The notes beneath the pieces are model-generated. The model ran no database searches, was not told the origin of the DNA, and saw only the letters and a list, made by a program, of their open reading frames with translations. DNA of 64,000 nt, taken from a bacterium (GTDB lineage Bacteria; Zhuqueibacterota; QNDG01; DSAB01). Position numbers and translations under genes: made by a program. Location of the stretch: assembly GCA_011388275.1 (NCBI GenBank), contig DSAB01000121.1, positions 123,579 to 187,578 of the forward strand, read 5' to 3'. This document shows, one piece after another, positions 4,966-20,619 of this stretch (its first letter is position 1; each line of letters begins with the position of its first letter).

Positions 4966-5970
4966 ATGCGTACTCTACTTGTTACCGGCGGAGCCGGTTT
5001 TATCGGGAGCAATTTTATTCAGTATATGCTGGGCAAGCATACAGAGATTTCCATTATTAATCTGGACAAGCTGACTTATGCCGGCAATCTGGAAAACCTG
5101 AAAACGGTCGAACATGACGACCGTTACCGATTCGTCGAAGGAGATATCTGTAACGCGGAGATCGTGAACCGGCTTGTTCCTGAAGCGGATGTCATTGTTA
5201 ATTTTGCGGCGGAGAGCCATGTGGATCGTTCGATCGGCAAGCCGGATGATTTCATTAAAACCGATATCTACGGCGTATTCGTTCTCCTGGAGGCGGCACG
5301 ATCAAATGGCATTCAGAGGTTTGTACAGATCAGTACCGATGAAGTCTATGGAAGCCGGGAAAAGGGCCATTTCAGTGAGACGGACCCGTTGATGCCTTCC
5401 AGCCCTTATGCCGCATCCAAAAGCGGAGCCGACCGCCTGGTTTATTCCTATTACGTTACGTATCGGCTGCCGGTTGTGATTCCGAGAAGCTCCAACAATT
5501 TCGGGCCCTATCAGTATCCGGAAAAGTTGATACCGCTTTTTGTAACCAACGCTTTGGAAAATAAAAAATTGCCCATCTACGGGGATGGTTTGAATGTCAG
5601 GGATTGGCTCTATGTCATGGATAATTGCGAGGCCATTGAACTCATCATGGAGCAGGGTCGGGACGGAGAGGCATACAATGTGGGTGCGGGGAACGAATAC
5701 AGCAACCTGGAGATCACCCGTTTTATTCTCGATTTTTTGCATAAACCCGAAAGCCTGATGACTTTTGTGGAAGACCGGAAGGGACATGACCGGCGATACG
5801 CTCTGGATATCGGCAAAACGTGCGCACTGGGCTGGAAGCCGCGCCATTCTTTTCAGGAGGCCATGAAGGAGACGATTCAGTGGTACTGCCATCATCGGGA
5901 GTGGTGGGAAAAACTGAAGAGCGGTGAATATCTGGAATACTATCGAAAGCAATATCAAAACCGGTTGTAA
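4966..5970 (+). CDS. rfbB: dTDP-glucose 4,6-dehydratase
   Basis: MRTLLVTGGAGFIGSNF Rossmann motif, DKLTYAGNLENL, FAAESHVDRSI, and a YAASK catalytic YxxxK. Length 334 aa. Confidence 0.9.
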   Translation: MRTLLVTGGAGFIGSNFIQYMLGKHTEISIINLDKLTYAGNLENLKTVEHDDRYRFVEGDICNAEIVNRLVPEADVIVNFAAESHVDRSIGKPDDFIKTDIYGVFVLLEAARSNGIQRFVQISTDEVYGSREKGHFSETDPLMPSSPYAASKSGADRLVYSYYVTYRLPVVIPRSSNNFGPYQYPEKLIPLFVTNALENKKLPIYGDGLNVRDWLYVMDNCEAIELIMEQGRDGEAYNVGAGNEYSNLEITRFILDFLHKPESLMTFVEDRKGHDRRYALDIGKTCALGWKPRHSFQEAMKETIQWYCHHREWWEKLKSGEYLEYYRKQYQNRL

Positions 5971-6000
5971 ACAAGGCAGAAGTTTTTAAAGAGGTTTTTT

Positions 6001-7311: not shown

Positions 7312-7338
7312 GAACCCCGGTGAAAGTCAGGAGGGGGT

Positions 7339-8637
7339 ATGATCGCATTGAAACGATGGATCGCGGCGGGGTGCAGTCTGTTCTTTCTGGGGGCGGTCTC
7401 TCTGAATGGTCAGGTCACGCATCCGTCCGATCCTGTGCTTCGTTCGACCGGTTATTTCCCCTGGAAGAATCAGGAAACCAAAGACCCCGCAACCATGACA
7501 CGGGAAGAATTCGAAGAATGGAAGCGACGGCGTTTCGAACAGGACCGAACGCGGTATACGTTTCTGACCGCCCAGGAAGGACCGGTTGATTCGAAGACCT
7601 ATCGGACAGGGCCCGGGGACGAGCTGCTGTTGCATATCACCGGCGCCATGGAACTGCAAATCCCTCTCTTTGTCACGCCGGAAGGACGGTTGTTTGTGCC
7701 CTCGGTCGGGGAGTTTCATGTATCGGGAATGACGCTCGAGAATGTACAGGAAGATGTGGTCAGGAGAGCGGCCTCGGTTTATAAAAATTGCGATGTCGGT
7801 CTTTCACTGGAAACGCTGCGGTTTTTTCGCGTTCATGTCGTGGGTGAAGTTCGATTTCCGGGCACCTACATCGCTCAGGCGGCCCATCGCGTGTCTGACG
7901 CCATACAGGAAGCCGGGGGAGTGACGGAGCGGTCCTGGAAGGGGAAAATTGAATTACGGCATCAAGGCGGGAATACCGACTATATAGACCTGGCCGCTTT
8001 TGAACAGAAAGGCATCCTTGATCATAATCCTCATCTTTCAGGCGGGGACATTGTTTATGTGCCTCCCCTTTCTCCTACAGGCGCCATTGTTGAAATAGAG
8101 GGGAATTTATCGCATGCCGGATATTATCAGGTTGTTCCGGGCGAGGACTTGATGGATTTTTTAAATCGTGTGGGAGCACTTCAAAAGCATTCCAATTTAG
8201 CCCGTTTTCATGTACTGAGGCCCGATTCCCGGTCACTCAGTGGTTATAGGCGGATACAGCCGTATGAACAGAGTGTGGCGGGTGATACACACTTTTCTCT
8301 GCAATCAGGCGATCGAGTCGTGCTGGATTCCGAGCATGTCTATGTCAGGGGAGCCGTACAGAATCCGGGAGCCTATCCCTATGTCCATCATATGAAGGCG
8401 ATCGATTATGCGGGGCTGGCGGGCGGTGATTATAGTTCTGCCGGGTACAAGCGTGTGACGGTTTATCATGCCGCTTCAGGAAAAACCCGAAAAGGACCCG
8501 ATGTCGTGGTGGAGCCCGGAGATGTGGTGCATGTCGATTCCCATTGGACACAGCGTTTTGATGTTATAATCCGTATTATTCCGACGATTACATCGCTGAT
8601 TCTGGCAGCCAAGGCAGCCGGATTTTTTGACCGTTAA
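7339..8637 (+). CDS. polysaccharide export outer-membrane protein (Wza-like, Poly_export + SLBB domains)
   Basis: Signal peptide MIALKRWIAAGCSLFFLGAVSLNG, a GPGDELLLHITG Poly_export motif, and repeated SLBB-like segments (GDIVYVP, GDVVHV). AGGAGG RBS. Confidence 0.8.
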   Translation: MIALKRWIAAGCSLFFLGAVSLNGQVTHPSDPVLRSTGYFPWKNQETKDPATMTREEFEEWKRRRFEQDRTRYTFLTAQEGPVDSKTYRTGPGDELLLHITGAMELQIPLFVTPEGRLFVPSVGEFHVSGMTLENVQEDVVRRAASVYKNCDVGLSLETLRFFRVHVVGEVRFPGTYIAQAAHRVSDAIQEAGGVTERSWKGKIELRHQGGNTDYIDLAAFEQKGILDHNPHLSGGDIVYVPPLSPTGAIVEIEGNLSHAGYYQVVPGEDLMDFLNRVGALQKHSNLARFHVLRPDSRSLSGYRRIQPYEQSVAGDTHFSLQSGDRVVLDSEHVYVRGAVQNPGAYPYVHHMKAIDYAGLAGGDYSSAGYKRVTVYHAASGKTRKGPDVVVEPGDVVHVDSHWTQRFDVIIRIIPTITSLILAAKAAGFFDR

Positions 8638-8668
8638 CACCGGACATCAAACCGATGAGGAGCCGGTT

Positions 8669-9898
8669 ATGGGGAAGAAAAACCAGGGCATGCTGGATCT
8701 TCTCGTATTGGCCGCAGAACATCGAAAAGGCCTTGTTATCCATTTTCTGATAATCTGCGGTTTGACGGCGGGCTTCAGCTTTATCGTTCCCAAGACTTTC
8801 CGGGCCGAAACCGTTTTATTGCCGCCGGTCGAAGATGAATCCATGGGGATGGGCTCTCTGCTGAGCCAGATCCCTCTTTCAGGTTTTGGATTCAGTCTGT
8901 CCCCGGTATCCGAAGAGACCAACATCTATATTGCCATTCTGAACAGCCGAACCGTGATGGAAACAGTCGCCAGGAGATTTGATTTGCAGCGTCTGTACCG
9001 GCTGGAAACGCTTGAAGAGACCGTGAAACAGCTGCGCCGGCGGGTGACGGTTAAGATCAACGATGATGCGACGCTTGCCATTCAGACTCACGCCCGCACC
9101 CGCTGGTTTTCGGGAAAGACCGGGGATGAACAGACCCGGAATCGATGCCGGGACATGGCCAATTATTTCGTTTCAAAGCTGGATTCTCTGAACCGCCGGT
9201 TCAAGTCTCAACGCGCATCCGATTATCGCATCTTTATTCAAGAGCGTTATCACCGGAACATGCAGGACCTGGCTCATGCCGAGGAATCGTTCAAGGCCTA
9301 TCAGGAGAGGGTCGGGGCCGTGGCCCTGCCTCAGCAGACTCAGGCGACCATTACCGCGGCCGCTGAGATGAAGGCCAGAATCATGGCCAAGGAGATCGAA
9401 CTGGAGGTTCTGGGATATTCCCTGGATTCGACGCATCCCGATTATATCAGAGTCATGAGAGAGAAACGGGAAACCGAAAGAAAATATCAGGAGTTTATCG
9501 CCCGGAACGGTTCCCATCGCTCGTTGGATGAAGAAAGCCAGGTCTTTCTTTCGTTGAGTGAGGTTCCGGATCTCGGACTGAATTATTTACGGCTGTATCG
9601 TGAAGTATTGCTTCAGGAGAAAATCCTTGAGCTGATTCTGCCTATGCTCGAACAGGCGAAAATTCAGGAAGCCAGAGATACGCCAACCGTACAGGTGCTC
9701 GACACCGCGGTTGCTCCTGTAAAAAAAATCAGGCCGCGCCGGGCGCTGTCCGTTATTTTTGCCGGTCTTCTGAGCGTGTTTTTCAGCCTGACCCTCTTTT
9801 CCATTCAGGAATATTTTAATAAAATGCGCCGGGAAAATACGGAAATGTATCAAAAATGGATAAAGGTGCTGGAGCTGATGAAGCATGGAACCGCATGA
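8669..9898 (+). CDS. polysaccharide co-polymerase / chain-length determinant (Wzz/GumC-like, no kinase domain)
   Basis: N-terminal TM (LVIHFLIICGLTAGFSFIVP), a long coiled-coil-rich periplasmic region, and a C-terminal TM (ALSVIFAGLLSVFFSLTLF). Start trimmed to the ATG preceded by GAGGAG. Confidence 0.65.
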   Translation: MGKKNQGMLDLLVLAAEHRKGLVIHFLIICGLTAGFSFIVPKTFRAETVLLPPVEDESMGMGSLLSQIPLSGFGFSLSPVSEETNIYIAILNSRTVMETVARRFDLQRLYRLETLEETVKQLRRRVTVKINDDATLAIQTHARTRWFSGKTGDEQTRNRCRDMANYFVSKLDSLNRRFKSQRASDYRIFIQERYHRNMQDLAHAEESFKAYQERVGAVALPQQTQATITAAAEMKARIMAKEIELEVLGYSLDSTHPDYIRVMREKRETERKYQEFIARNGSHRSLDEESQVFLSLSEVPDLGLNYLRLYREVLLQEKILELILPMLEQAKIQEARDTPTVQVLDTAVAPVKKIRPRRALSVIFAGLLSVFFSLTLFSIQEYFNKMRRENTEMYQKWIKVLELMKHGTA

Positions 9899-9962
9899 AC
9901 TATTTTGTGTTGATATTTTCCCGCGATTCGGTTGATACAGATCAATATTATGCGACGGATAT

Positions 9963-11504
9963 ATGGAGCCCGCATGTATGTCCCGGCTTCGATCTCAAAA
10001 TATGTTTCAGGCTTCTCTGATCCTGGTGGGAGCGGCTCTTTTCAGCCGTATGACGGGTTTTATTCGCGAGATGGTTATTGCCCATCGCTTCGGGACAAGC
10101 ATCGATTATGATGTTTTCCTCGTGGCGGTATCCATACCCATCGCATTATGCAACACCCTTCTGTTCGCCCTGCCGAGCGGCTTGATTCCCTGGTATCTGT
10201 CGGAAAAGAAGCGGATCGAACGGGATGTTCCTTCCATGTTTCTGGCAAAGGCCGTTTTGTTTTTCGGTGTTTTACTGTTTCTGATCAGCCTGTTCATACT
10301 GGTCCTGGCGCCGGTGATACTGAGATATTATGCACCGGCGTTTGGAGAACATGAAATGTACCAGGGTGTGTTTTTCCTTCGAATGACGAGCTGCATCGTG
10401 TTTTTTGGCGGCTTGTTCGCACTGATGCGAAGTTTCATGCATGCGGAAAATCATTTTCTTGTACCCGCGCTGGCGCCGCTGCTGTTGAATGGAGCTGTTA
10501 TCTTTTTTGTACTGCACCTGTCCGGTCATGCCGGAATCCGTGCATTGGGGTGGGGTGTGGTTGCCGGATACGGCCTGCAGGCTGCCGTGGCTTTTTTCTT
10601 TACTGTCCGGCATATTCTGCGCCGTTCCGGGCCTCAAACACAATCGCCGGTTTTGCATGCCGCTTTTCAAAGTGTGCTGTTTGTACTGTTCATTGAGGTG
10701 ATGGGACAGATGGTTGTCATCATCGACAGAGCTTTTCACGGATCCGTGACAACCGGATCCATTGCCGCCCTGAATTTCGCGGGCACCCTGTGTCAGGTTC
10801 CTATTGGTATTCTGGGCATAACACTGGGCACCGCCATTTTCCCTGCCATTTCACGCATGGCTGTGGACGGGGATTATATTGAATTGGGCCGGGTCGTAAA
10901 TACAGGCATGAAAACCGTTTTATTTGTAACGCTGCCAGTGGCTCTGTTTATGATGATTTTTGCGGATCCAATTATTGCGCTGTTTTTTCAAAGAGGGGCG
11001 TTTACCGTTGAATCCAAAAACTTGACCGCCGGAGCCTTTGTGTGGCTGAGTTTTTCCGTCCCATTTCTGGCTGCGCACGCGGTACTGATAAAAACCTTCT
11101 ATGCCATGAAAATACGGCATGTCCTTGTTCTGGTGACTCTGGGCGGTCTGGCGGGCAAGGTGCTTTTAAGTCATTGGCTTGTGATTCCATTTCAGCATCG
11201 CGGGTTGGCTATGGCCACGGCATTGGCTTCCTCTTTATTGGTGATATGTATGCTGGCCTTTTTACAGAAGAAAATCCGGCCTTTTGATATTCGAGTATGG
11301 GCGAGCTTTTTACTCAGAATGGTTTTAACCGCCATGCTGGCCGTATTGGGTGCTCGAATCGGTATCTATCCTTATTTGGGTCAAAAGCTGTATGTCGCCT
11401 TGCCTGGTAGTCTCCTGGCTGCGGGGATTATTTTTATCATGCTTCATGTGTGGATGAAAACCGACGCACTCTATTTTATGATTCACCGAATGAGAAAGAC
11501 ATGA
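9963..11504 (+). CDS. MurJ/MviN-family (MOP superfamily) flippase
   Basis: N-terminus ...SLILVGAALFSRMTGFIREMVIAHRFG is the MurJ hallmark. Roughly 14 TM. The exact start (9963, 9978 or 10002) is uncertain. Confidence 0.75.
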   Translation: MEPACMSRLRSQNMFQASLILVGAALFSRMTGFIREMVIAHRFGTSIDYDVFLVAVSIPIALCNTLLFALPSGLIPWYLSEKKRIERDVPSMFLAKAVLFFGVLLFLISLFILVLAPVILRYYAPAFGEHEMYQGVFFLRMTSCIVFFGGLFALMRSFMHAENHFLVPALAPLLLNGAVIFFVLHLSGHAGIRALGWGVVAGYGLQAAVAFFFTVRHILRRSGPQTQSPVLHAAFQSVLFVLFIEVMGQMVVIIDRAFHGSVTTGSIAALNFAGTLCQVPIGILGITLGTAIFPAISRMAVDGDYIELGRVVNTGMKTVLFVTLPVALFMMIFADPIIALFFQRGAFTVESKNLTAGAFVWLSFSVPFLAAHAVLIKTFYAMKIRHVLVLVTLGGLAGKVLLSHWLVIPFQHRGLAMATALASSLLVICMLAFLQKKIRPFDIRVWASFLLRMVLTAMLAVLGARIGIYPYLGQKLYVALPGSLLAAGIIFIMLHVWMKTDALYFMIHRMRKT

Positions 11505-12868
11505 ACGTTCAACAGATTCAGGATTCCCGTATTCCGATGGCATGTCTGGCTCTTCCATTTGTATTGGTTGAGATTATACTGATCTTCGCAGGCTTGTATG
11601 TCTCAATTTGGCTGATTCCTTCAGGTCTGGCCGTTCTGGCCCTGGTGTGGTGGATCGTTCCGGAGCCCCGGCGTGTGATCTGCCTTTGGATTTCAGCGGT
11701 TCCTCTGCTGCCGCTCCTGCCTGCGGATCTGCGCCCTGCGGTGCTGGCCGGGTTTACCGGGCTGGTGCTGATGACGGTTTGGGGAGGTTGGTTGACAGGG
11801 GAGAGGAGAGAGAACAACGTTTCGATGCCCCGGCCTGTCGGTCGGTTCATACTCATCTATATGGGAATTTCTCTGGCCGCCTGTTTATTTTCGGTGGATC
11901 CCGCAATCAGCTTGAGAGAGTGGCTGACCCATGGGCTGATCTGGGTTTTCTTTTTCGGAGTGTTCCGAATGATCGATAAAAACAGTTTGCCATTCATGGC
12001 CGGAGCCTTGATGGCTTCCACGGTTTTGATGCTGATTGCCGCGACACCCGATTTGATTTCAGGGCGATTTCTGTTCGCGTTTGGCGATCAGCGACTCGGA
12101 TCTTTTTATGAAAATCCCAACAATTTCGCCGTTCCCTTTATTGTCAGTATTCCGCTGTTTGCTTCCGCGGTCATGCAGGGGCCCTATAAAGGGAAAACCC
12201 GAATGGGCCTGGGGGTTCTGTTGGGTGCTTCACTCATTTGTGTCCTGATCACCAACTCCAGATCGGCTTATCTCTCTGTTGCGGTTTCTCTGTCTGTGAT
12301 TTTCGCTTTTTCACCCAAAGGACGGTGGATATGGTTTTCAGGTGTCGCGCTGGCATCTTCAATGACCATGCTCTTTTTTGGCAAAGAGATCCTGTTTCTG
12401 CTCAGGCTCGGCCAGGGTCTGACCGGCCGGGGCTATCTGTGGAGAGCGGCCTGGCGCATGATGATGGACCATCCTTTCGGGACCGGACCGGGCACCTATG
12501 AGCAGATGAAAGGCGCCTACATTTTACCCGCCGACTGGATCGCGAAAATCACTCATTCCAGCACACTGCCCGGGGCGGCTCACAATCTGTATCTGACCTG
12601 GGGAGCCGAACTGGGGCTGCTCACGGCCGTTGTGCTTACCGTCTGTCTGGCCGGAATGACTATTCGCTGGTTTCGAATCCGTTCATTGGTATGCTCAAAG
12701 AGCAATATCTGGCTGTTCTCCGGTGCCCTGGCGATTCTTTGCGGGCTTTTCGCGCGTGCGTGGTTTGAGAGCGGTGTTATTATCAATGATTTCAGTGACA
12801 GTCTGTATTTTCTTCTGCCGATATGGATATTGACGGTTCTGGAATCCGACAGAGAGCCGTCATCCTAG
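11501..12868 (+). CDS. O-antigen ligase / Wzy-like polymerase membrane protein
   Basis: Polytopic membrane protein with a Wzy_C-like block VLITNSRSAYLSVAVSLSVIF and a periplasmic loop. The start (ATGA) overlaps the MurJ stop. Confidence 0.6.
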   Translation: MNVQQIQDSRIPMACLALPFVLVEIILIFAGLYVSIWLIPSGLAVLALVWWIVPEPRRVICLWISAVPLLPLLPADLRPAVLAGFTGLVLMTVWGGWLTGERRENNVSMPRPVGRFILIYMGISLAACLFSVDPAISLREWLTHGLIWVFFFGVFRMIDKNSLPFMAGALMASTVLMLIAATPDLISGRFLFAFGDQRLGSFYENPNNFAVPFIVSIPLFASAVMQGPYKGKTRMGLGVLLGASLICVLITNSRSAYLSVAVSLSVIFAFSPKGRWIWFSGVALASSMTMLFFGKEILFLLRLGQGLTGRGYLWRAAWRMMMDHPFGTGPGTYEQMKGAYILPADWIAKITHSSTLPGAAHNLYLTWGAELGLLTAVVLTVCLAGMTIRWFRIRSLVCSKSNIWLFSGALAILCGLFARAWFESGVIINDFSDSLYFLLPIWILTVLESDREPSS

Positions 12869-12882
12869 AGCAAGGTGTTCGC

Positions 12883-14697
12883 ATGCCGGGTTTTCACTTC
12901 GTCCATTGTCATCAATCCGGGTTTTCGCGCAAGCTGGAAGAGCGGGCCCTGAGGGGGTGCTTGCATTCCGATGATTATGAAGTGCGCTGTCTGGCAAAAA
13001 CGAATACGGCCCGTCTCTTTGTTTCCGCTTATAACGGGTATCCTGTTCGATCATGGGAAGATGACCGGGTTCGGGTTTATATGGAAGGGCATGTTTATGG
13101 CTTGACGGAATCGGATCTTCGCGAACAGATCCTTCGTCTGGCTCGGGATGTGCTTTCCGGAACACCTTCCGGACGGCTCGAAAGATGGCTGCGCGGCACA
13201 GACGGTGAATTTCTTCTGATTATTCATGACAAAAAGAATCTGAGCTGGTTTGTTCTCAATGATGCTCTGGCCCATTTGCCCGTGTACTATTATGCGACGG
13301 CCGACCGAATGATTCTGTCGAGAGAGATGGGTTTTCTGCTTTCATGTGAACCTGACACGGATATGGATCCCCTTTCTGCGGCCCTGTATGCACTTTTTAT
13401 CTTTACGCCGGGAACCCGGACGCTGTTCAGGAATATTCGACGGATGGCTCCGGGCTCCCTGATTCGGGTCGATCCCGGCGGGCGGTGGCGCTTTCAGAGG
13501 GTGGTCGAATGGAATTTTGAAACATCGGCTGAATACCGCATGGACTGGATTGATCAACTGACCGGGCTCTTTCGTGAGACATGCGATGCCATGCGAAACA
13601 TCTCTTCAGGCGGAAGGCGGATAATCAGCCTGAGCGGGGGAATCGATTCACGGGCCGTGATCGCGGGCCTGCTGCCGGATCCGCAGCTGCACAGCGAAAC
13701 ATTTTTAGATAAAGAGAAAACCGCTGTTCGGGATGTACGGGTGGCTTCGCGTGTGGCACGCTGGGCGGGTTCCCCGTGGAGCCTGACCCCTCTTTCTCCG
13801 GTCAGGGCCGAGGACCTGAATAAACTGATGGATTTAAAAAAGGGAATGTGCTCTTTTGGCATGGGTTTCATTCTTTCCTTTTTCCAATCCATTCGAGAAC
13901 GTTATGGCTCAAAAGTTCTGTTTTTCACCGGCAATACCGGCATGCTTTTAAGGCATTACGGACTTCCGGCCGACATCGACGATTCGGCGAAACTGTCAGA
14001 ATATATTCTTTCCCGTCATCATCAGCTTCCCATGGACATGGTTGCTGCATGGACCGGAATATCCCCTGCGGCAGTCAGAGAAAAACTGACGGAAATTGTG
14101 GACAGGTATCCGGAAAATTCCCTGGAGGGGAAATATCTCCACTTCATCATGACCGGAAAAGGGATGATCTGGCATTATGAAAACGCGGATCTGGCCCGTT
14201 ATTATTTTTGGCCGTGCGCTCCCCTGGAATCCACGCGTTTCTATCAGATGGCTTCACGTATTCCTCAAAGCATGAAAAAAGATTATCAATTATACCGATG
14301 TTTTATCGGCCACCTGAATCCGGATGCCGGCCGTATACCGGACGCCAACACGGGCCTGGCGTTCTCGGCCGCTCTTTTTCCGTTGATCTATGGCGCCGAA
14401 CAGCGAATGGTTTCGGCCTTGTCCCGATACTCCAGGTTGATGCTGAAAGCCAGGAGATTGTGGACTCATAAAGGAAGATCGAGAGTCGAATCAGAGGCAC
14501 GAAAATGTATGGAAGAACAACTGAAGTCAATGATAACACACTCCGGTTCGGTTGAGGTTCTCGGCCGTTTCCTGCGTGGGGGAGGGGGCATTTCAAAGTT
14601 TCAGATTGAACTGCTGCTTACCCTCGCCAGTGTCAGGGAGATGATTGAAGGAAGGCCGATCAGCCTGGAACGGTATTTTGGACGGGAAATGCATTGA
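12883..14697 (+). CDS. asparagine synthase B-like amidotransferase (PP-loop), N-terminal nucleophile Cys apparently absent
   Basis: LSGGIDSRAVIAGLL matches the AsnB SGGLDSS PP-loop. The N-terminal domain aligns by eye to the class II glutaminase domain (DGEFLLIIHDKKN...LNDALAHLPVYY), but the protein begins MPGFHF rather than MC. Confidence 0.75.
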   Translation: MPGFHFVHCHQSGFSRKLEERALRGCLHSDDYEVRCLAKTNTARLFVSAYNGYPVRSWEDDRVRVYMEGHVYGLTESDLREQILRLARDVLSGTPSGRLERWLRGTDGEFLLIIHDKKNLSWFVLNDALAHLPVYYYATADRMILSREMGFLLSCEPDTDMDPLSAALYALFIFTPGTRTLFRNIRRMAPGSLIRVDPGGRWRFQRVVEWNFETSAEYRMDWIDQLTGLFRETCDAMRNISSGGRRIISLSGGIDSRAVIAGLLPDPQLHSETFLDKEKTAVRDVRVASRVARWAGSPWSLTPLSPVRAEDLNKLMDLKKGMCSFGMGFILSFFQSIRERYGSKVLFFTGNTGMLLRHYGLPADIDDSAKLSEYILSRHHQLPMDMVAAWTGISPAAVREKLTEIVDRYPENSLEGKYLHFIMTGKGMIWHYENADLARYYFWPCAPLESTRFYQMASRIPQSMKKDYQLYRCFIGHLNPDAGRIPDANTGLAFSAALFPLIYGAEQRMVSALSRYSRLMLKARRLWTHKGRSRVESEARKCMEEQLKSMITHSGSVEVLGRFLRGGGGISKFQIELLLTLASVREMIEGRPISLERYFGREMH

Positions 14698-15821
14698 TGT
14701 CGCTTGCCTATACAAACCAGGGAAGCCGAAGCGAAAAAAATATCCGCTGGATCTACATTGCCCATACATTCGGCATGCCGCGGACCGGTGGAGAACGATA
14801 CAACCATCTGTTGATTGAAACCATACAAAGGACCGGCCAGGATGTGCGCATCCTGACGGATGAGGCGATTCCCCGATTCTGGCGGTCTCATTTTATTCTA
14901 TACAACTTCTGGTACTGTACGCATTGGCGGAAGTTTCGGGGATGCCGGCTGATTGTCGATCATTACATGTTCCCCCGATTGGTCCTGTTTTTATATTGGC
15001 TCAAGAAACGCACATCGGTGTCCGTTGTCGGCATTGTCCATCACCTTTATTGGAACTGGTTTTATTCCGGGCCGCGGTTTTTATCTGCTTTCATGAAGAA
15101 AGCGGAGGCATGTTTCATACGCCGGTTCAACTGTCTGCTGGTGCCCAGTCACTGCACCCTTCAGTCCATTGCCGACATTGTTGACCCTCCTCCGGTTGCG
15201 GGGATCATTCCGCCTGGGACGGATCGTGAATTCCGGGGGGAATTAACCCGCGGGTCAACACCCAAAAGTGATCAATGCCGGTTGCTGTATGTGGGAATGC
15301 TGCATCGCCGCAAGGGCATCGATGCTCTCCTTCGGGCAATGTGTTTGCTTCCGGCGGCGATAAGCCTTACTGCAGCAGGCCAGGGCCATCGCCGCTATGA
15401 GAAATGGCTTCGCCGAAAGGTGAAAAGATGGAGTATTGAAGACAGAATTCGATTCAAAGGGCATTTAAACAGTCAGGAACTGGACCGCCTGTACAGGCAG
15501 GCCGATGTATTCGTACTTCCTTCGAGGCATGAAGGATTCGGCATTTCCCTGGTGGAGGCCATGAGAGCCGGTCTGCCTGTTGTGGCATCACGGATCTGTA
15601 CTCTGTCCGAACTGACCGATGAGGGCCGAAGCGCGTTGCTCGTCCCGCCCGGCGATGTCCGCCGGCTCGCAGATGCCATTTGCCGCCTTTGTGCGGACGA
15701 CGATTTGAGAATTCGTATGGGCGAAGCCGGCCGCAAGCGCGCGCAAGCCACTTTGACATGGAAGCAGGTCGAGTCGGAGTTTGAAGCAATGATACAAAAA
15801 TGGAAAGGGATGTTTTTGTGA
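14694..15821 (+). CDS. glycosyltransferase family 4 (GT-B)
   Basis: FVLPSRHEGFGISLVEAMRAGLPVVASRI is the classic GT4 EX7E region. Start overlaps the upstream stop (ATGA). Confidence 0.8.
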   Translation: MMSLAYTNQGSRSEKNIRWIYIAHTFGMPRTGGERYNHLLIETIQRTGQDVRILTDEAIPRFWRSHFILYNFWYCTHWRKFRGCRLIVDHYMFPRLVLFLYWLKKRTSVSVVGIVHHLYWNWFYSGPRFLSAFMKKAEACFIRRFNCLLVPSHCTLQSIADIVDPPPVAGIIPPGTDREFRGELTRGSTPKSDQCRLLYVGMLHRRKGIDALLRAMCLLPAAISLTAAGQGHRRYEKWLRRKVKRWSIEDRIRFKGHLNSQELDRLYRQADVFVLPSRHEGFGISLVEAMRAGLPVVASRICTLSELTDEGRSALLVPPGDVRRLADAICRLCADDDLRIRMGEAGRKRAQATLTWKQVESEFEAMIQKWKGMFL

Positions 15822-16939
15822 GACTGTGTTATATCGGCGATGCCATGAATCCGCATATTCAGAAATGGACTTCCTCGTTGGCTCGCCGGGGACATGACGT
15901 GCATCTGATCACATGCCGGCCTCGGTCGATCCCCGGTGTTACGATTCATCCGGTTCGTATTTTCTGGCCGACACGTATCTGTGCCACGGCCTCTCTTTTT
16001 TCCCGTCTCGGATATTTGACCTGTGTTCCGGCGGTTCGGCAAACCGTTCGTCGAATCACTCCGGATATTCTCCATGCCCATTATTCTACGTCGTACGGAC
16101 TCATGGGGGCTGCCGCTGGATTTCATCCGTTCATTATCTCCACCTGGGGAAGTGATATTTTCGCATTTCCGCGCCGTTCCCGCGTTTTTGCCGCTCTGCT
16201 TGGAAAAATACTGTCCCGTGCCGACGCGGTGACGGCCACAAGCCGCATGCTGACCGAAGAGACGGCCCGATACATGGGCAAGACAGGAATCGTCGAGACG
16301 ATCCCATTCGGGGTGGATATCGAACGGTTTACGCCGCGGCGTCGCCAAAACTCAAAAAAGCCGGTAACCATTGGGATTGTCAAAACGTTGGAAAAAAAAT
16401 ACGGGATCGAGCTGCTGATCCGGGCTTTTGCGCAAATTCATGCAAGGCATCCTGAAGCGTCTCTTATGATTGTCGGTGACGGAGGGGAATACAAGCCACT
16501 GAAAGCTTTGAGTCAAAACCTGGGGCTGTCGGCAAAGATTCGCTTTTGCGGTTTTGTTGAGAACCCTGATGTGCCTGATCTGTTGAACCGGATGGATATT
16601 TTTGCCGTCCCTTCCGTGTCTCCTTCGGAGACATTCGGTGTGGCCGCTGTGGAAGCATCGGCTTGCGGGCTTCCGGTCGTGGCATCCCGAATCGGCGGGC
16701 TGCCGGAGGTCGTTTGTGACGGCAAGACGGGTCTTCTGATTCCTTCCGGCGATGTGGATGCATTGGCACGGGCTTTGGAGCAATTGATCATGGATCCCGA
16801 TCTGAGAAAAAGACTGGGGGATGCAGGCCGCGGGTTTGTTGTTGAAAAATACCCATGGAAGGAAAGTGTCCGCCGTATGGAGACTCTCTATATTCGCTTG
16901 GTAAACAGCGGTCGCCGTGTTTCGAGGAAATTACAATGA
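15800..16939 (+). CDS. glycosyltransferase family 4 (GT-B)
   Basis: FAVPSVSPSETFGVAAVEASACGLPVVASRIGGLPEVV and an N-terminal ...LARRGHDVHLIT segment. The true start may be the GTG at about 15818. Confidence 0.8.
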   Translation: MERDVFVRLCYIGDAMNPHIQKWTSSLARRGHDVHLITCRPRSIPGVTIHPVRIFWPTRICATASLFSRLGYLTCVPAVRQTVRRITPDILHAHYSTSYGLMGAAAGFHPFIISTWGSDIFAFPRRSRVFAALLGKILSRADAVTATSRMLTEETARYMGKTGIVETIPFGVDIERFTPRRRQNSKKPVTIGIVKTLEKKYGIELLIRAFAQIHARHPEASLMIVGDGGEYKPLKALSQNLGLSAKIRFCGFVENPDVPDLLNRMDIFAVPSVSPSETFGVAAVEASACGLPVVASRIGGLPEVVCDGKTGLLIPSGDVDALARALEQLIMDPDLRKRLGDAGRGFVVEKYPWKESVRRMETLYIRLVNSGRRVSRKLQ

Positions 16940-18066
16940 TTGTTCTGTGGTGGGCGGCAGCGATCCTTTTATTTCTTTCGTTTGCCGGATATCCTCTTTT
17001 TCTTCTCGTTTTCGTCAGGAAAGTAGAGAGGCATGACTGTCCTTCTGACTATCAGCCGCATGTCAGCCTCATTATTCCGGCCCGGAACGAGGCCGGAGTC
17101 ATTGAGGCCAAACTTTGCAACACCCTGGCTCTTGAATATCCTCGAGACCGACTCGAGATTTGGGTGGTTTCCGACGGATCTGTGGATGATACCGATTCGA
17201 TTATTCGCCGATTCGAGTCCGAAGGCGTCAATAAAATTCGTTTTGAGGAGAGCCGGGGAAAAACCGAAGCTCAGAATGAAGCCGTACGCAGAAGCCGCAA
17301 TGAAATCCTCCTGTTTTCCGATGCCAATGCCATGTATGATCAACAGGCGGTACGAAAGCTGACACGTCATTTTTATCATTCCGATGTGGGATGTGTCTCC
17401 GGGCAGCTTCTCTATGAGCGGCTGGGAGGCCCTCCGGACATAGAAGAAACCGTGTATTGGCGTTATGAAAAAGGGTTGAAAAAACTGGAAAACCGGATCG
17501 AGGCGATTCCCGGAGTCAATGGGTCGATCTATGCTGTCAGACGCTCTGATTATGTTTTCCTTGAACCGGATATTATCAGTGATTTTATTGAGCCTCTGGA
17601 GATTGCCCGTAAGGGGAAAAAAGTGGTCTATGAACCGGAGGCCCTTTCCATCGAGCCTCCGCCGGTCAATCTCTGTCAGGAATTCAGACGAAAAAGAAGA
17701 ATCGTCAGCCGGTCTGTGCGCAGCCTGCTTTCACACAGGCATTTGATGAATCCATTTCAGCATCCGATGATTGCCGCATCCCTCTTTTTTCATAAAGTCC
17801 TGCGGTGGATGAGTCCTCTCATCATGCTCGTTCTTTTTGCCGCAACCCTGAGTCTTTTTAGCGGCGGACGATTTCGGATTGCCTTGATACTCCAGATTTT
17901 GTTCCTTTTTCTGGGGGCTCTTGGTTTTCTCTTTCGGAATAAAAGGGAAATCCCGACTTGGATTTTTGTTCCATATTATGTATTATTACTGGGTGCGGCG
18001 TCCCTTCTGGGAATGTATGATGCTTTTACGGGAAGAGCTCCGCAGGTCTGGACACCATCCCGCTGA
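16936..18066 (+). CDS. membrane-anchored glycosyltransferase family 2 (synthase-like topology)
   Basis: N-terminal TM, IIPARNEAGVIEAKL and VVSDGSVDDT (DXD-type GT-A), and three or four C-terminal TM helices. Start MIVLWW overlaps the upstream stop (ATGA). Confidence 0.75.
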   Translation: MIVLWWAAAILLFLSFAGYPLFLLVFVRKVERHDCPSDYQPHVSLIIPARNEAGVIEAKLCNTLALEYPRDRLEIWVVSDGSVDDTDSIIRRFESEGVNKIRFEESRGKTEAQNEAVRRSRNEILLFSDANAMYDQQAVRKLTRHFYHSDVGCVSGQLLYERLGGPPDIEETVYWRYEKGLKKLENRIEAIPGVNGSIYAVRRSDYVFLEPDIISDFIEPLEIARKGKKVVYEPEALSIEPPPVNLCQEFRRKRRIVSRSVRSLLSHRHLMNPFQHPMIAASLFFHKVLRWMSPLIMLVLFAATLSLFSGGRFRIALILQILFLFLGALGFLFRNKREIPTWIFVPYYVLLLGAASLLGMYDAFTGRAPQVWTPSR

Positions 18067-18083
18067 AAAAGCGTGAGGCCCTT

Positions 18084-19526
18084 ATGTCTCGCTGGACGGA
18101 AAGATTGCTGCTTGCGGGAACGGATTTTATTATGATCCATGCCGCGTTCTTTCTGTGGATGGAAACGAATGGAAGGACTTTCACCCTTACTTCCGAGGCT
18201 TTGCGAGAAATCCTTCCCGTGTCGGCCGGTATTTATATTTACTGGCTGGCCCTGTTCGGCTTTTTTGGACTGTATCGGTCTTTTATTCTTTCCAGAACCG
18301 ACGAACTGATCAATCTTATCAAGACAGTGACGGTGGGGGTTTTTGTCATTTTCCTGCTTACTTTCGATATCGAGAAGGGCAGCGGCCATCCACTGGAAAT
18401 GAACCGGTATCGTGTGCTGATCTATTGGTGCCTGATGTGGGGATTGACAGGGGCCGGACGCATGGCATATCGAACGGTGATTCGGAAACTGCTTGAGAAG
18501 GGTATAGGCCGCCGCAAGACTCTGATCGTCGGGGTTGGAGAAAATGCAGGAACCCTGTACCATGACGTTCAGCAGGCACCGGCATTGGGATACGAAATAG
18601 TCGGATTTATTCAAACTGAAGGAGATCCGGTCCCTGCCGAATGGGACAAGCCGGTTTTGGGAACACTTTCCCGGCTTCATAAAATTATCGAGCAGTCAGG
18701 CATACAGGTCGTGCTTATTGCCGTTACACGGAAGTCGGTTCGTCTTCTGGAAGAAATCGTGTCTCAGTGTGACGGGCTGCCCGTGAGCATGAAAATTGTC
18801 CCCGATCTTTATGACGTCATCGTCGGGCAGGCCCGTACCCATCAGATTTATGGTTTCCCGTTGATCGAGATACTGCCTCAGTTGATGCAGCCGTGGGAGC
18901 GGGCCGTCAAGCGGCTGATCGATATTGTACTTTCGCTGATGATTCTTGTCGGATTTTTTCCTCTTTGGGTCGTTGTGGCGCTTGTTATTCCCCTGGATTC
19001 AAGAGGTTCTGTTTTCTATTTGCAGGAGAGGGTGGGGCGCGGGGGGCGTGTTTATAAAATGATTAAATTCCGGTCCATGGTAGAGGGTGCTGAAAAAATG
19101 ACCGGTCCGGTCTGGGCCACTTATAACGATCCCCGGGTGACGCGTTTTGGCCGGCTTTTGCGTCGATTCCGCCTGGATGAGATCCCTCAGCTCATCAATG
19201 TACTGAAAGGAGATATGTCATGGGTCGGCCCACGGCCTGAGAGGCCCTATTTTGTCAGGAAGTTTCAGAAGCAGATTCCCTTGTACAGCCGCCGGCTCCG
19301 CGTTCGGCCCGGAATTACGGGATGGGCGCAGGTGATGGGTCAATACGATCAGTCACTGGAACATGTCAAGCAGAAGCTCGCTTATGATTTGTTTTATCTG
19401 GAGAACATGTCTCTTCGAATGGATCTGAAAATTGCATTAAATACACTGTATGTCATGCTGTCCGGATCGGGATTTAAAAAGAATGAAACTGAAAGGGAGA
19501 ATGAAAATGACCATTCCCATGGTTGA
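18084..19526 (+). CDS. polyprenyl-phosphate sugar-1-phosphate transferase (priming glycosyltransferase, WbaP/EpsL type)
   Basis: Several N-terminal TM helices, then the Bac_transf domain: KRLIDIVLSLMILVGFFPLWVVVALVIPLDSRGSVFYLQERVGRGGRVYKMIKFRSM...DEIPQLINVLKGDMSWVGPRPERP. Confidence 0.85.
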   Translation: MSRWTERLLLAGTDFIMIHAAFFLWMETNGRTFTLTSEALREILPVSAGIYIYWLALFGFFGLYRSFILSRTDELINLIKTVTVGVFVIFLLTFDIEKGSGHPLEMNRYRVLIYWCLMWGLTGAGRMAYRTVIRKLLEKGIGRRKTLIVGVGENAGTLYHDVQQAPALGYEIVGFIQTEGDPVPAEWDKPVLGTLSRLHKIIEQSGIQVVLIAVTRKSVRLLEEIVSQCDGLPVSMKIVPDLYDVIVGQARTHQIYGFPLIEILPQLMQPWERAVKRLIDIVLSLMILVGFFPLWVVVALVIPLDSRGSVFYLQERVGRGGRVYKMIKFRSMVEGAEKMTGPVWATYNDPRVTRFGRLLRRFRLDEIPQLINVLKGDMSWVGPRPERPYFVRKFQKQIPLYSRRLRVRPGITGWAQVMGQYDQSLEHVKQKLAYDLFYLENMSLRMDLKIALNTLYVMLSGSGFKKNETERENENDHSHG

Positions 19527-20607
19527 TCTGACGAAACAATATCAGGCGCTGCAGAAAGAAATCAACCGGACCATCGGGCGGGTTCTTCAAAGCACACAAT
19601 TTATTATGGGTTCTGAGGTGGAGGCGTTTGAAAAGGAGATGGCCGAATACTGCCAGACCCGGTTTGCCGTATCATGTAATTCCGGAACAGACGCCCTGCA
19701 GATCTGTTTAATGGCAATCGATATTCAGCCGGGCGATGAGGTCATCACCACTCCGTTTACTTTTGTGGCCACAGCAGAGGTCATTCGACTTCTGAAGGCC
19801 AGGCCGGTATACGTGGATATCGACCCGGACACCTATCTGCTCGACATTTCCCGGATTGAACGCAAGATCACTAAAAGAACTCGTGCGATACTGCCCGTCC
19901 ATCTTTTCGGCCAGTGCGCGGATATGGATCCAATCAATGAGCTGGCCGATCGCCACGGCCTTGTGGTTATTGAAGATGCCTGCCAGGCTGTGGGGGCGAC
20001 CTACCGGGGCCGTAAAGCTTGCAGCCTCGGATCAATGGGCTGCCTTTCCTTTTTCCCTTCGAAAAATCTTGGGGCTTATGGAGACGGCGGTATGGTGTTG
20101 ACATCCGATGAGCAGCTGGCGGAAAAAATCCGCATGATAAGAAATCATGGTTCATCCAGGCGTTATTATCATGAAGTGATCGGTGTCAACAGCCGTCTTG
20201 ATACGTTGCAGGCGGCGGTGCTGAGGGTCAAGCTCAAACATCTGGACATGTGGAACGAGGCGAGAAAAGACAGGGCCGCTCTCTATACGGAACTGCTCAG
20301 CCGCGGAAACGTGGTCACGCCCGTGATTCTGGAAGATCGGTCTCATGTTTTTCACCAGTATTCAATTCGCGTAAAAGACCGGGACGGTTTGCGAAAGGCA
20401 CTGGATGAACATGGAATCACAACAGCTGTTTATTATCCGGTACCGCTTCATTGTCAGCCCGCGTTTGCCGACGGCAGGCAGAAAGAGGGCCTTTTCCCCA
20501 TGACGGAAAAGACGGCACAAAATATTCTTTCTTTGCCTATGTATCCGGAGCTGAAAGAAAAGGATGTTCAGGCCATCGCTTGTCAGGTATTATCATTCAC
20601 GGGATAG
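19501..20607 (+). CDS. DegT/DnrJ/EryC1/StrS-family PLP-dependent sugar aminotransferase
   Basis: MKMTIPMVDLTKQYQALQKEI...FIMGSEVEAFEKEMAEYC N-terminus, and FFPSKNLGAYGDGG (the PLP-Lys region) typical of the family. Start trimmed to the ATG following GGGAGA. Confidence 0.85.
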   Translation: MKMTIPMVDLTKQYQALQKEINRTIGRVLQSTQFIMGSEVEAFEKEMAEYCQTRFAVSCNSGTDALQICLMAIDIQPGDEVITTPFTFVATAEVIRLLKARPVYVDIDPDTYLLDISRIERKITKRTRAILPVHLFGQCADMDPINELADRHGLVVIEDACQAVGATYRGRKACSLGSMGCLSFFPSKNLGAYGDGGMVLTSDEQLAEKIRMIRNHGSSRRYYHEVIGVNSRLDTLQAAVLRVKLKHLDMWNEARKDRAALYTELLSRGNVVTPVILEDRSHVFHQYSIRVKDRDGLRKALDEHGITTAVYYPVPLHCQPAFADGRQKEGLFPMTEKTAQNILSLPMYPELKEKDVQAIACQVLSFTG

Positions 20608-20619
20608 CAGGGGAAGATT

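What the first reader, a model, noticed from the sequence alone, without database searches (positions are those of the whole stretch)
12883..14697. AsnB-like amidotransferase lacking the N-terminal nucleophile cysteine
The PP-loop synthetase half is intact (LSGGIDSRAV). The N-terminal domain still looks like a class II (Ntn) glutaminase domain, yet no in-frame start gives Met-Cys; the candidates are MDIDGS... and MPGFHF... It sits between the Wzy-like polymerase and the GT4 genes, and the locus encodes a nucleotide-sugar 6-dehydrogenase. Together this suggests a WbpS-like uronamide-forming enzyme that may take ammonia directly or lean on a partner glutaminase. Exosortase-associated AsnB paralogues in EPS loci are a known parallel.
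Basis: partly seen in the sequence, partly recalled or inferred. Interest (0 to 1): 0.5.

Follow-up and report, generated by a model that had tools for sequence, protein, structure and literature searches.

The report
Cysteine-less, proline-first AsnB-like glycan enzyme
This gene belongs to a large, unstudied branch of the asparagine-synthetase superfamily that keeps its ATP-using half, has swapped the catalytic first cysteine of its glutamine-splitting half for a conserved proline, and sits in sugar-polymer gene clusters, so it probably makes an amide bond on a cell-surface sugar without using glutamine.

Summary
The gene is 12883-14697 (+). Its only credible start gives Met-Pro-Gly-Phe, the PP-loop (SLSGGIDSR) is intact, and the N-terminal half is homologous to the class II (Ntn) glutaminase domain from residue 1 (hhalign 99.8%, MPG aligned on MCG). 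The missing cysteine is not an error. An exhaustive profile search finds more than 150 full-length cluster representatives, and about 93% begin Met-Pro-Gly, with all four Pro codons in use. The other glutamine-site residues are also replaced: Asn74 by Glu, Glu76 by Arg/Lys/His, and Arg49 and Asp98 are lost. Even so, the N-domain is nearly as conserved as the synthetase half, and dN/dS against an 89% orthologue is 0.16. No Pfam or NCBIfam model claims the clade, and the WbpS-type model scores 33 bits against a cut-off of 817. Members come from uncultured Zixibacteria, Cloacimonadota, Chlorobiota, Planctomycetota and others. They lie in Wzx/Wzy polysaccharide loci, most often beside GT4 genes (21 of 33 loci). 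A sugar 6-dehydrogenase is nearby in only 4 of 33, and no partner glutaminase recurs. My best reading is a glutamine-independent, ATP-dependent amide-forming tailoring enzyme for a glycan repeat unit. Substrate and nucleophile are unknown. It is a new variant of a known kind, of moderate interest.

The parts
12883..14697 (+). Gene X: 604-aa AsnB-superfamily protein of the 'Met-Pro-Gly' clade (stop TGA 14695-14697)
   Evidence: ORF. Identical to a MAG 'hypothetical protein'. Family profile hit of 1100 bits. dN/dS 0.16 against the 89% orthologue.
12823..12882 (+). Upstream in-frame extension (MDIDGS...), rejected as coding for X
   Evidence: It overlaps the Wzy 3' end by 46 nt. It shows 5 non-synonymous and 1 synonymous difference from the orthologue. 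Homologues start at the aligned MPG.
12872..12877 (+). AAGGTG, a Shine-Dalgarno-like motif 5 nt before ATG 12883
   Evidence: Read directly from the sequence.
12883..12891 (+). Met1-Pro2-Gly3, in place of the Met-Cys-Gly of Ntn amidotransferases
   Evidence: hhalign puts MPG on MCG. Pro occurs in 127 of 137 representatives that have this position and in 70 of 75 loci, with all four Pro codons used.
12883..13527 (+). Ntn (class II glutaminase)-like N-terminal domain, aa 1-215, with the glutamine site remodelled
   Evidence: 29 columns are at least 80% conserved in the family. dN/dS is 0.20.
13084..13092 (+). Glu68-Gly69-His70, aligned with AsnB Asn74-Gly75-Glu76 (oxyanion hole and Gln alpha-amino ligand)
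   Evidence: Glu is 95% and Gly 99% conserved, and position 70 is mostly Arg/Lys/His.
13528..14382 (+). PP-loop ATP-pyrophosphatase (synthetase-like) domain, aa 216-500
   Evidence: TIGR01536 partial hit, Foldseek, hhalign. dN/dS is 0.13.
13633..13653 (+). PP-loop S-G-G-I-D-S plus the family-specific Arg257
   Evidence: 97-100% conserved in 150 representatives.
13927..13935 (+). Thr349-Gly350-Asn351, aligned with AsnB Ser346-Gly347-Glu348. The family has Asp (84%) where the window has Asn.
14179..14199 (+). E-N-A-D-L-A-R, the window's variant of the family motif E-G-E-D-R-N-R (aligned with the AsnB KxDRxSM region)
14383..14694 (+). Helical C-terminal region, aa 501-604, modelled with low confidence
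   Evidence: pLDDT is below 50 for residues 514-570 and 590-604.
14695..14699 (+). TGATG: the stop codon of X overlaps the ATG of the downstream GT4 gene, which suggests translational coupling
   Evidence: Read directly from the sequence.
11450..12868 (+). Wzy_C (O-antigen polymerase/ligase-like) membrane protein directly upstream
   Evidence: Pfam PF04932, E 4e-18.
14697..16939 (+). Two GT4 glycosyltransferase genes (14697-15821 and 15800-16939)
   Evidence: Pfam Glycos_transf_1, E 1e-36 and 2e-48. GT4 is the commonest neighbour of the family.
4966..11504 (+). Upstream part of the locus: RmlB (4966-5970), nucleotide-sugar 6-dehydrogenase (6001-7311), Wza (7339-8637), Wzz (8627-9898), MurJ-type flippase (9963-11504)
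16855..20607 (+). Downstream part of the locus: GT2 (16855-18066), polyprenyl glycosylphosphotransferase (18084-19526), DegT-type sugar aminotransferase (19450-20607)

Best explanation
Gene X encodes a cytoplasmic tailoring enzyme of a Wzx/Wzy-dependent polysaccharide pathway. It descends from glutamine-dependent asparagine synthetase but no longer hydrolyses glutamine. Shown: the fold, the intact PP-loop, the loss of the Cys nucleophile and of every glutamine-binding residue, purifying selection on both domains, and a conserved glycan-locus context. Inferred: the C-terminal PP-loop domain adenylates a carboxylate on a sugar precursor or lipid-linked repeat unit. In this window the likeliest substrate is the N-acetyl-hexosaminuronic acid made by the locus's dehydrogenase. 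The acyl-AMP is then captured by a nitrogen nucleophile that does not come from glutamine, giving an amide. The N-domain is as conserved as the catalytic half and its pocket is re-charged (Glu for Asn74, Arg/Lys/His for Glu76, Pro for Cys1). I therefore infer that it now binds the amine or acceptor substrate, or a partner such as the translationally coupled GT4, and is not a dead remnant. I think an organic amine (an amino acid or an amino sugar) is somewhat more likely than free ammonia.
For: The two-domain AsnB fold and the homology from residue 1 come. The PP-loop and Thr/Ser349-Gly350 are 97-100% conserved. Cys1 is replaced by Pro, Asn74 by Glu and Glu76 by a basic residue, and the Arg49 loop and Asp98 are lost. 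29 of the 83 columns conserved at 80% or more lie in the N-domain. dN/dS is 0.20 for the N-domain and 0.13 for the C-domain. GT4 lies within 10 kb in 21 of 33 dereplicated loci, together with Wzx/Wzy, DegT, deacetylases and epimerases. The cassette MurJ-Wzy-X-GT4-GT4 is kept between genomes whose proteins are only 25-40% identical. The stop of X and the start of GT4 overlap as TGATG. No recurrent glutaminase neighbour was found. From established knowledge and PMC13060819: the AS family makes amides, lactams and nitriles through acyl-adenylates, and its Cys-less members (beta-lactam synthetase, carbapenam synthetase, lasso cyclases) use organic amine nucleophiles.
Against: There are no biochemical data for any member. 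The window protein is the third most deviant of 150 representatives (18 of 83 conserved columns). It has Asn at the position of AsnB Glu348, where the family has Asp, and Leu/Ala in the EGEDRNR motif. From memory of the literature, AsnB E348Q/A variants cannot form the adenylate. The Lys aligned with AsnB Lys449 / beta-LS Lys443 is not evident in the family (this is a low-confidence region). The carboxylate source is not conserved: a 6-dehydrogenase is nearby in 4 of 33 loci, and any uronic-acid-pathway marker in 11 of 33. Substrate and nucleophile are therefore guesses.
Confidence: 0.5

Rival explanations
1. WbpS-like uronamide synthase using free ammonia. The enzyme adenylates C-6 of a (lipid- or UDP-linked) HexNAc-uronic acid and free NH3 attacks, giving the primary uronamide. 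The N-domain is only a structural leftover or an ammonia channel cap.
For: The locus encodes a nucleotide-sugar dehydrogenase of the UDP-HexNAc type. WbpB/D/E/I-type genes for di-N-acetyl uronic acids occur in several related loci. AsnB-family WbpS/WbqG/PGN_1234 are genetically required for uronamides (PMC7468200). Canonical AS enzymes accept ammonia (PMC13060819).
Against: It is not a member of the WbpS family (32.6 bits against 816.9). The dehydrogenase is near the gene in only 4 of 33 loci. An unused N-domain would not be expected to keep 29 strongly conserved columns, a conserved start position and dN/dS of 0.20.
Confidence: 0.25
2. The Ntn domain has gained a new active site built on the N-terminal proline. 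After Met removal, Pro1, with Glu68 at the old oxyanion-hole position, acts as base or nucleophile, as in tautomerase-superfamily or Fpg-type enzymes. It would perform a second chemical step, for example on a keto-sugar, coupled to the adenylation.
For: Pro2 is among the top ~10% most conserved columns. All four Pro codons are used, and the start codon position is fixed. Glu68 is 95% conserved at the position next to residue 1 in the Ntn fold. Pro followed by Gly permits Met excision (established knowledge).
Against: About 5% of members have Ala, Ser, Thr, Leu, Ile or Phe instead of Pro while keeping every other conserved residue. With Leu, Ile or Phe the Met would not be removed. True catalytic residues in this family are 99-100% conserved, for example Gly253, Asp127 and Arg147.
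Confidence: 0.1
3. Non-catalytic pseudoenzyme or scaffold that organises the GT4/Wzy machinery.
For: In the window copy the AsnB Glu348 equivalent is Asn and several motif residues are lost. The gene is tightly coupled to GT4.
Against: The PP-loop is 97-100% conserved across more than 150 divergent representatives, including the window protein. The C-domain has the lowest dN/dS, 0.13. The Asn351 variant recurs in other members that have otherwise intact motifs.
Confidence: 0.08
4. Artefact: a mis-called start or a sequencing error hides a normal Met-Cys AsnB/WbpS.
For: None beyond the prior expectation for AsnB paralogues.
Against: There is no Cys codon after any in-frame start. Pro is conserved in about 93% of homologues from independent assemblies. 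No representative has Met-Cys-Gly. The Gln-site residues are also replaced.
Confidence: 0.01
5. Peptide-modifying AS-like enzyme (lasso or macrolactam cyclase, or a C-terminal amidase) that merely happens to lie in a glycan locus.
For: It lacks Cys, as lasso cyclases do. NCBIfam lasso and macrolactam models give weak hits (33 and 20 bits).
Against: Those scores are far below the cut-offs (525 and 300) and no better than the generic AsnB hit. There is no precursor peptide, leader peptidase or RiPP gene nearby. The glycan context is conserved across phyla.
Confidence: 0.03

Closest known systems
WbpS / WbqG / PGN_1234 (TIGR03108 eps_aminotran_1, AsnB-type uronamide amidotransferases of O-antigen and A-LPS pathways)
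   Same: AsnB-superfamily two-domain architecture with a PP-loop. Encoded inside polysaccharide loci next to Wzx/Wzy, DegT and Wbp-type genes. Plausibly acts on a HexNAc-uronic acid carboxylate (PMC7468200).
   Different: Those enzymes keep Met-Cys-Gly and the glutamine site. The window protein scores 32.6 bits against the 816.9-bit cut-off and has Pro2, Glu68 and His70 instead of Cys1, Asn74 and Glu76.
E. coli AsnB / human ASNS (glutamine-hydrolysing asparagine synthetase, TIGR01536; PDB 1CT9, 6GQ3)
   Same: The fold of both domains (Foldseek E about 1e-14). PP-loop SGGxDS and the Ser/Thr-Gly ATP contacts. Homology from residue 1.
   Different: 13-20% identity. The score is 38.9 bits against a cut-off of 267. 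Cys1, Arg49, Asn74, Glu76 and Asp98 are all replaced or deleted. The HRGPD motif is deleted, and the region around KxDRxSM and the Lys449 motif is remodelled.
Beta-lactam synthetase and carbapenam synthetase (PDB 1JGT, 1Q15), lasso-peptide cyclases
   Same: Cys-less descendants of asparagine synthetase that keep the Ntn-like domain and use the PP-loop domain to adenylate a carboxylate for attack by an organic amine. They are among the best structural matches (E about 1e-16).
   Different: They belong to secondary-metabolite or RiPP clusters, and their N-termini are not conserved as Met-Pro-Gly (my knowledge, not tested here). Family HMM scores are far below cut-off. The context here is glycan assembly.
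TsnB9 hydroxyamidotransferase (PDB 7YLZ)
   Same: Best sequence and structure match among solved structures (phmmer E 3e-4, profile E 1.3e-9, Foldseek E 1.7e-17). It is an AS-like enzyme that transfers a non-ammonia nitrogen nucleophile.
   Different: 15-16% identity. It works in trichostatin biosynthesis. From my knowledge it retains the N-terminal Cys.

Membership tests
Glutamine-hydrolysing asparagine synthetase (AsnB, TIGR01536 / PF13537+PF00733) | N-terminal nucleophile Cys (Met-Cys-Gly-Ile start) | tested here: not met
   The start is Met-Pro-Gly-Phe, and no in-frame Met-Cys exists. MPG aligns on MCG.
Glutamine-hydrolysing asparagine synthetase (AsnB, TIGR01536 / PF13537+PF00733) | Glutamine-binding residues Arg49, Asn74, Glu76, Asp98 | tested here: not met
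   Asn74 is Glu68 and Glu76 is His70. The Arg49 loop is deleted and the Asp98 motif (SDTEV) is absent.
Glutamine-hydrolysing asparagine synthetase (AsnB, TIGR01536 / PF13537+PF00733) | PP-loop SGGxDS and a two-domain Ntn plus ATP-pyrophosphatase fold | tested here: met
   SLSGGIDS at aa 250-256. Foldseek matches to 1CT9, 6GQ3 and 7YLZ over both domains.
Glutamine-hydrolysing asparagine synthetase (AsnB, TIGR01536 / PF13537+PF00733) | Score above the curated HMM cut-off | tested here: not met
   TIGR01536 scores 38.9 bits against 267.1. Pfam GATase_7 scores 20.5 against 25, and PF00733 is not reported.
WbpS / TIGR03108 XrtA-PEP-CTERM-associated amidotransferase | Score above the curated HMM cut-off (816.9 bits) | tested here: not met
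   32.6 bits for the window protein. The best E-value among 12 other clade members is 4.8e-18, and the one member with a listed score (P0027) reaches 52.8 bits.
WbpS / TIGR03108 XrtA-PEP-CTERM-associated amidotransferase | Exosortase / PEP-CTERM genes in the genome or locus | tested here: inconclusive
   None among 30 window ORFs scanned with Pfam. Only 64 kb of the genome is available.
WbpS / TIGR03108 XrtA-PEP-CTERM-associated amidotransferase | Uronamide in the glycan product that depends on the gene | not testable with these tools
   This needs glycan structure analysis of the wild type against a mutant.
Cys-less AS-like cyclases (beta-lactam synthetase, CarA, lasso cyclase NF033535, macrolactam cyclase NF033561) | Loss of the N-terminal Cys with the AS fold and PP-loop retained | tested here: met
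Cys-less AS-like cyclases (beta-lactam synthetase, CarA, lasso cyclase NF033535, macrolactam cyclase NF033561) | HMM score above cut-off and a natural-product or RiPP gene context | tested here: not met
   NF033535 scores 33.4 against 525 and NF033561 scores 19.9 against 300. The neighbours are Wzy, GT4, a flippase and so on.
Cys-less AS-like cyclases (beta-lactam synthetase, CarA, lasso cyclase NF033535, macrolactam cyclase NF033561) | Catalytic Tyr-Glu dyad and Lys443 (beta-LS numbering) | tested here: inconclusive
   Alignments in this region are of low confidence. No Lys is seen at the aligned RPKxGF position.
Unnamed 'Met-Pro-Gly' AS-like clade defined here | Met-Pro-Gly N-terminus. Conserved Tyr53-Pro54, Glu68-Gly69, Asp127, Arg147, SGGxDSR, Glu411, ExxDxxR...W...P. 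Full-length profile score above 400 bits. | tested here: met
   1100 bits. All the listed residues are present in the window protein. It deviates at 18 of 83 conserved columns, for example D351N, R437L and N438A.
Unnamed 'Met-Pro-Gly' AS-like clade defined here | Location in a Wzx/Wzy-type glycan locus, usually next to GT4 | tested here: met
   Window. Family: GT4 in 21 of 33 loci.

The most novel reading that the evidence does not exclude
The ancestral Ntn glutaminase domain has been converted into a new functional site around N-terminal Pro1, Glu68 and a basic residue 70. This site either catalyses a step of its own or selects an organic amine (an amino acid or an amino sugar). The clade would then install amino-acid or amine amides on surface glycans, a widespread modification whose enzymes are largely unknown.
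Probability: 0.2. Interest if true: 0.75.

Novelty: new variant of a known kind. Interest (0 to 1): 0.55.

Why it matters
Amide-modified uronic acids and N-acylated amino sugars shape the charge and antigenicity of bacterial surface polymers, yet few of the enzymes that make them are known. This gene marks a large clade: several hundred clusters at 50% identity, across Zixibacteria, Cloacimonadota, Chlorobiota, Bacteroidales, Planctomycetota, Calditrichota and an archaeal MAG. The clade is currently labelled 'hypothetical' or, wrongly, 'asparagine synthase (glutamine-hydrolysing)'. It is an example of an Ntn amidotransferase whose nucleophile was replaced by a conserved proline while the domain stayed under selection. 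That gives a concrete, testable target for new glycan-tailoring chemistry and for correcting annotation. It is not a new kind of system: Cys-less asparagine-synthetase descendants are already known.

Tried and rejected
1. The word-index homologue search found only 4 relatives, and repeating it with a 90-sequence alignment added nothing. The apparent rarity was a search artefact, as the exhaustive HMMER search showed.
2. The search for related loci with the 90-sequence alignment failed for lack of a conserved stretch. A 12-sequence alignment worked.
3. The afdb50 fold library was unavailable, so no UniProt-named structural neighbours could be listed.
4. The contig of P0003 had no DNA. The P0004 context (beta-helix protein, GNAT, PhyH) was uninformative.
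5. Literature searches for an AS-like enzyme with an N-terminal proline or without Cys in glycan loci returned nothing. The general uronamide search gave only background.
6. The partner-glutaminase idea was checked. The recurrent neighbour clusters are GT4, epimerase/dehydratase, Wzx, Wzy, DegT, Wza, Wzz, deacetylase, sulfatase-like, ATP-grasp, GINT1_N-like and C25 peptidase, and none is a glutaminase.
7. I asked whether Pro2 is indispensable. Ten members lack Pro but are otherwise intact, so I lowered the catalytic-proline reading.
8. Pseudogene or decay in the window copy was rejected by dN/dS of 0.16.
9. RiPP or lasso cyclase was rejected on score and context.
Full report
**1. The observation**

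The finding's interval lies in an ORF that runs 12823..14697 on the + strand. Upstream, the frame is closed by a stop at 12793-12795. The only in-frame start codons are ATG 12823 (MDIDGS...) and ATG 12883 (MPGFHF...), and neither is followed by Cys.

ATG 12883 is the start, for these reasons:
- The upstream Wzy-like gene ends with TAG at 12866-12868.
- AAGGTG lies 5 nt before the ATG.
- Homologues of 25-33% identity begin exactly at the aligned Met-Pro-Gly.
- The 20 upstream codons differ from the 89%-identical orthologue (L002) by 5 non-synonymous and 1 synonymous change.

The PP-loop SLSGGIDSR is at aa 250-257.

**2. Homology**

Curated models barely see the protein:
- Pfam GATase_7: 20.5 bits, cut-off 25.
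- TIGR01536: 38.9 bits, cut-off 267.
- TIGR03108, the WbpS/exosortase-associated type: 32.6 bits, cut-off 817.
- Lasso-cyclase model: 33.4 bits, cut-off 525.

The homology is nonetheless secure. A profile of 90 family members aligns with a profile of canonical AsnB-type proteins at 99.8% probability (E 1.6e-27) over 543 columns, beginning with MPG on MCG. An AlphaFold2 model (pLDDT 74.6, pTM 0.81) matches TsnB9, carbapenam synthetase, beta-lactam synthetase, human ASNS and E. coli AsnB over both domains (Foldseek E 1e-17 to 1e-13). It matches PurF, GFAT and GlmS, which share only the Ntn glutaminase domain, at E about 1e-5.

**3. The glutaminase site is remodelled, not just decapitated**

Alignments to canonical sequences and to human ASNS show these changes:
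- Asn74-Gly75-Glu76 (NGEIYN) becomes Glu68-Gly69-His70.
- The HRGPD motif and the loop after Arg49 are deleted.
- The SDTEV motif that carries Asp98 is absent.

Glutamine hydrolysis is therefore not expected.

**4. A large unnamed clade**

The word-index search returned four relatives, which made the protein look like an orphan. The exhaustive HMMER search of 1.84 billion cluster representatives showed otherwise: 848 hits at E<=1e-30, and the best 150 are all full-length at 420-1100 bits.

N-termini across the clade:
- Of those 150, 117 begin M/V/L-Pro-Gly outright, about ten more carry MPG just inside an over-called extension, and none has Met-Cys-Gly.
- After trimming, Pro occupies position 2 in 127 of the 137 sequences that have that position.
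- In 75 independently assembled loci whose N-terminus aligns, 70 have Pro. CCA, CCC, CCG and CCT are used 21, 18, 16 and 15 times, so selection acts at the amino-acid level.

Family-wide, 83 columns are at least 80% conserved, and 29 of them lie in the N-domain: Pro2, Gly3, Tyr50, Tyr53-Pro54, Glu68-Gly69, Tyr72, Trp102, Asp107-Gly108, Asn126-Asp127, Arg131-Leu-Pro, Tyr135, Arg147 and others. The remainder include SGGxDSR, Thr349-Gly350-Asp351, Glu411, His420, the E-G-E-D-R-N-R motif, Trp443, Pro447 and Lys465. Position 70 is mostly Arg, Lys or His.

NCBIfam scans of 12 other members also stay far below every cut-off. Source names are 'hypothetical protein', 'asparagine synthase-related protein' or 'asparagine synthase (glutamine-hydrolysing)'. 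The organisms are all uncultured: Zixibacteria, Planctomycetota, Calditrichota, Cloacimonadota, Chlorobiota, Bacteroidales and an Altiarchaeales MAG.

**5. The window copy**

It belongs to a sub-group marked by GHLP, TG[DN]TG-M and WHYE. It is the third most deviant of the 150 representatives, departing at 18 of 83 conserved columns against a median of 7. The departures include Asn351, where the family has Asp and AsnB has Glu348, and E-N-A-D-L-A-R in place of E-G-E-D-R-N-R. Other members share Asn351.

The gene is under purifying selection against its 89% orthologue. dN/dS is 0.16 overall, 0.20 for the N-domain and 0.13 for the C-domain.

**6. Context in the window**

On the + strand the locus reads:
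- a small RmlC-like ORF
- RmlB (457 bits, above the cut-off of 365)
- a nucleotide-sugar dehydrogenase, closest to the UDP-ManNAc / UDP-GlcNAc 6-dehydrogenase types
- Wza, Wzz, a MurJ-type flippase, Wzy
- X
- GT4, GT4, GT2
- a polyprenyl glycosylphosphotransferase
- a DegT-type aminotransferase
- SerRS

The stop of X overlaps the ATG of the first GT4 gene as TGATG.

**7. Context across the family**

I analysed 6 GTDB loci, 80 metagenome loci and several contig look-ups. After dereplication, 33 loci had at least 8 kb of flank. The numbers with a given gene within 10 kb are:

| Neighbour | Loci (of 33) |
|---|---|
| GT4 | 21 |
| DegT | 9 |
| Wzx | 9 |
| RmlB-like epimerase/dehydratase | 8 |
| UDP-GlcNAc 2-epimerase | 8 |
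| hexapeptide acetyltransferase | 8 |
| nucleotide-sugar dehydrogenase | 4 |
| WbpB-like oxidoreductase | 3 |
| any of dehydrogenase, WbpB or 2-epimerase | 11 |

Other recurrent neighbours are Wzy_C, Wza, Wzz, polysaccharide deacetylase, a sulfatase-like protein, a 'sugar-transfer associated ATP-grasp', a GINT1_N-like protein and DUF6541. No glutaminase recurs.

A Zixibacteria MAG keeps the order Wza-Wzz-...-MurJ-Wzy-X-GT4-GT4-...-DegT-PGT-...-SerRS-kinase, although its proteins are only 25-40% identical to the window's.

**8. Interpretation**

Shown: the superfamily, the fold, the intact nucleotide-binding loop, the loss of the glutaminase machinery, selection on both domains, and a glycan-assembly context.

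Inferred: the protein is a glutamine-independent, ATP-dependent carboxylate-adenylating enzyme that makes an amide on a sugar precursor or lipid-linked repeat unit. This rests on the chemistry of the AS family, which makes amides, lactams and nitriles via acyl-AMP (PMC13060819), and on my own knowledge that beta-lactam synthetase, CarA and lasso cyclases lack the Cys and use organic amines. Because the N-domain stays conserved with a re-charged pocket, I think it binds the amine or acceptor, or a partner such as the coupled GT4. I rate an organic amine as somewhat more likely than free ammonia.

It fits the window's dehydrogenase and the Wbp-type genes in some loci, and AsnB-type WbpS, WbqG and PGN_1234 are genetically tied to uronamides (PMC7468200). 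However, the protein is not a member of that family, and the dehydrogenase link is weak across the clade.

A catalytic role for Pro1 is attractive but weakened. Ten members carry Ala, Ser, Thr, Leu, Ile or Phe at position 2 and keep every other conserved residue.

Artefact, pseudogene and RiPP-cyclase readings are rejected.

**9. Verdict**

This is a real feature and a new variant of a known kind: a Cys-less, Pro-first branch of the asparagine-synthetase superfamily dedicated to glycan loci. Interest is moderate (0.55). It would surprise a specialist mildly. Its main value is that it opens a tractable, widespread and unannotated enzyme family to experiment.

Noticed in passing
window 9963-24959; L092 6970-21821: The gene order MurJ-type flippase, Wzy, X, GT4, GT4, ..., DegT/PGT, ..., SerRS, histidine kinase is shared with a Zixibacteria MAG. 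The proteins are only 25-40% identical (SerRS 55%). A seryl-tRNA synthetase directly after the glycan locus in both genomes is curious.
   Followed up: partly
L018, L050, L063/L064, L091 (e.g. L091 7451-9778; L050 7576-9873): A Peptidase_C25 protein with a T9SS Por_Secre_tail / FlgD_ig domain lies directly upstream of the family gene in several loci. A VimA-like FemAB/Acetyltransf_6 gene is nearby in L050 and L091. This hints at a link to the Wbp/Vim anchor-glycan pathway of type IX secretion cargo (PMC7468200).
   Followed up: partly
window 9963-11504: The locus flippase scores above the cut-off of the MurJ equivalog model (243 bits against 235.55) rather than looking like a Wzx. It could be the cell's MurJ or a MurJ-type EPS flippase.
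   Followed up: no
window 4456-4911: A 151-aa ORF gives weak hits both to RmlC (dTDP-sugar 3,5-epimerase, 46 bits against a cut-off of 156) and to Polysacc_synt_C. It may be a cupin-type sugar isomerase or a mis-called ORF.
   Followed up: no
window 823-2838 (-) and 29054-31387 (-): Two long ORFs (670 and 776 aa) have no Pfam match.
   Followed up: no
window 16855-16939: The GT2 ORF as listed overlaps the end of the second GT4 gene by 85 nt, so its true start is probably further downstream. The same applies to the DegT ORF (19450), which overlaps the PGT gene by 77 nt.
   Followed up: no
family-wide (P0039, P0101 clusters): JGI names several clade members 'asparagine synthase (glutamine-hydrolysing)'. 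The absent Cys and glutamine-site residues contradict that name, so it is probably a propagated mis-annotation.
   Followed up: yes
P0025: One clade member is attributed to a Candidatus Altiarchaeales archaeon MAG. The clade may therefore cross the bacteria-archaea boundary, or the bin may be contaminated.
   Followed up: no
L068, L039, L047 (downstream of the family gene): A sub-group of loci shares a fixed block: a sulfatase-like protein, GT4, an aminoglycoside-3-N-acetyltransferase-like protein, a 'sugar-transfer associated ATP-grasp' and a DUF6541 membrane protein. The ATP-grasp is a second potential amide ligase in the same loci.
   Followed up: partly
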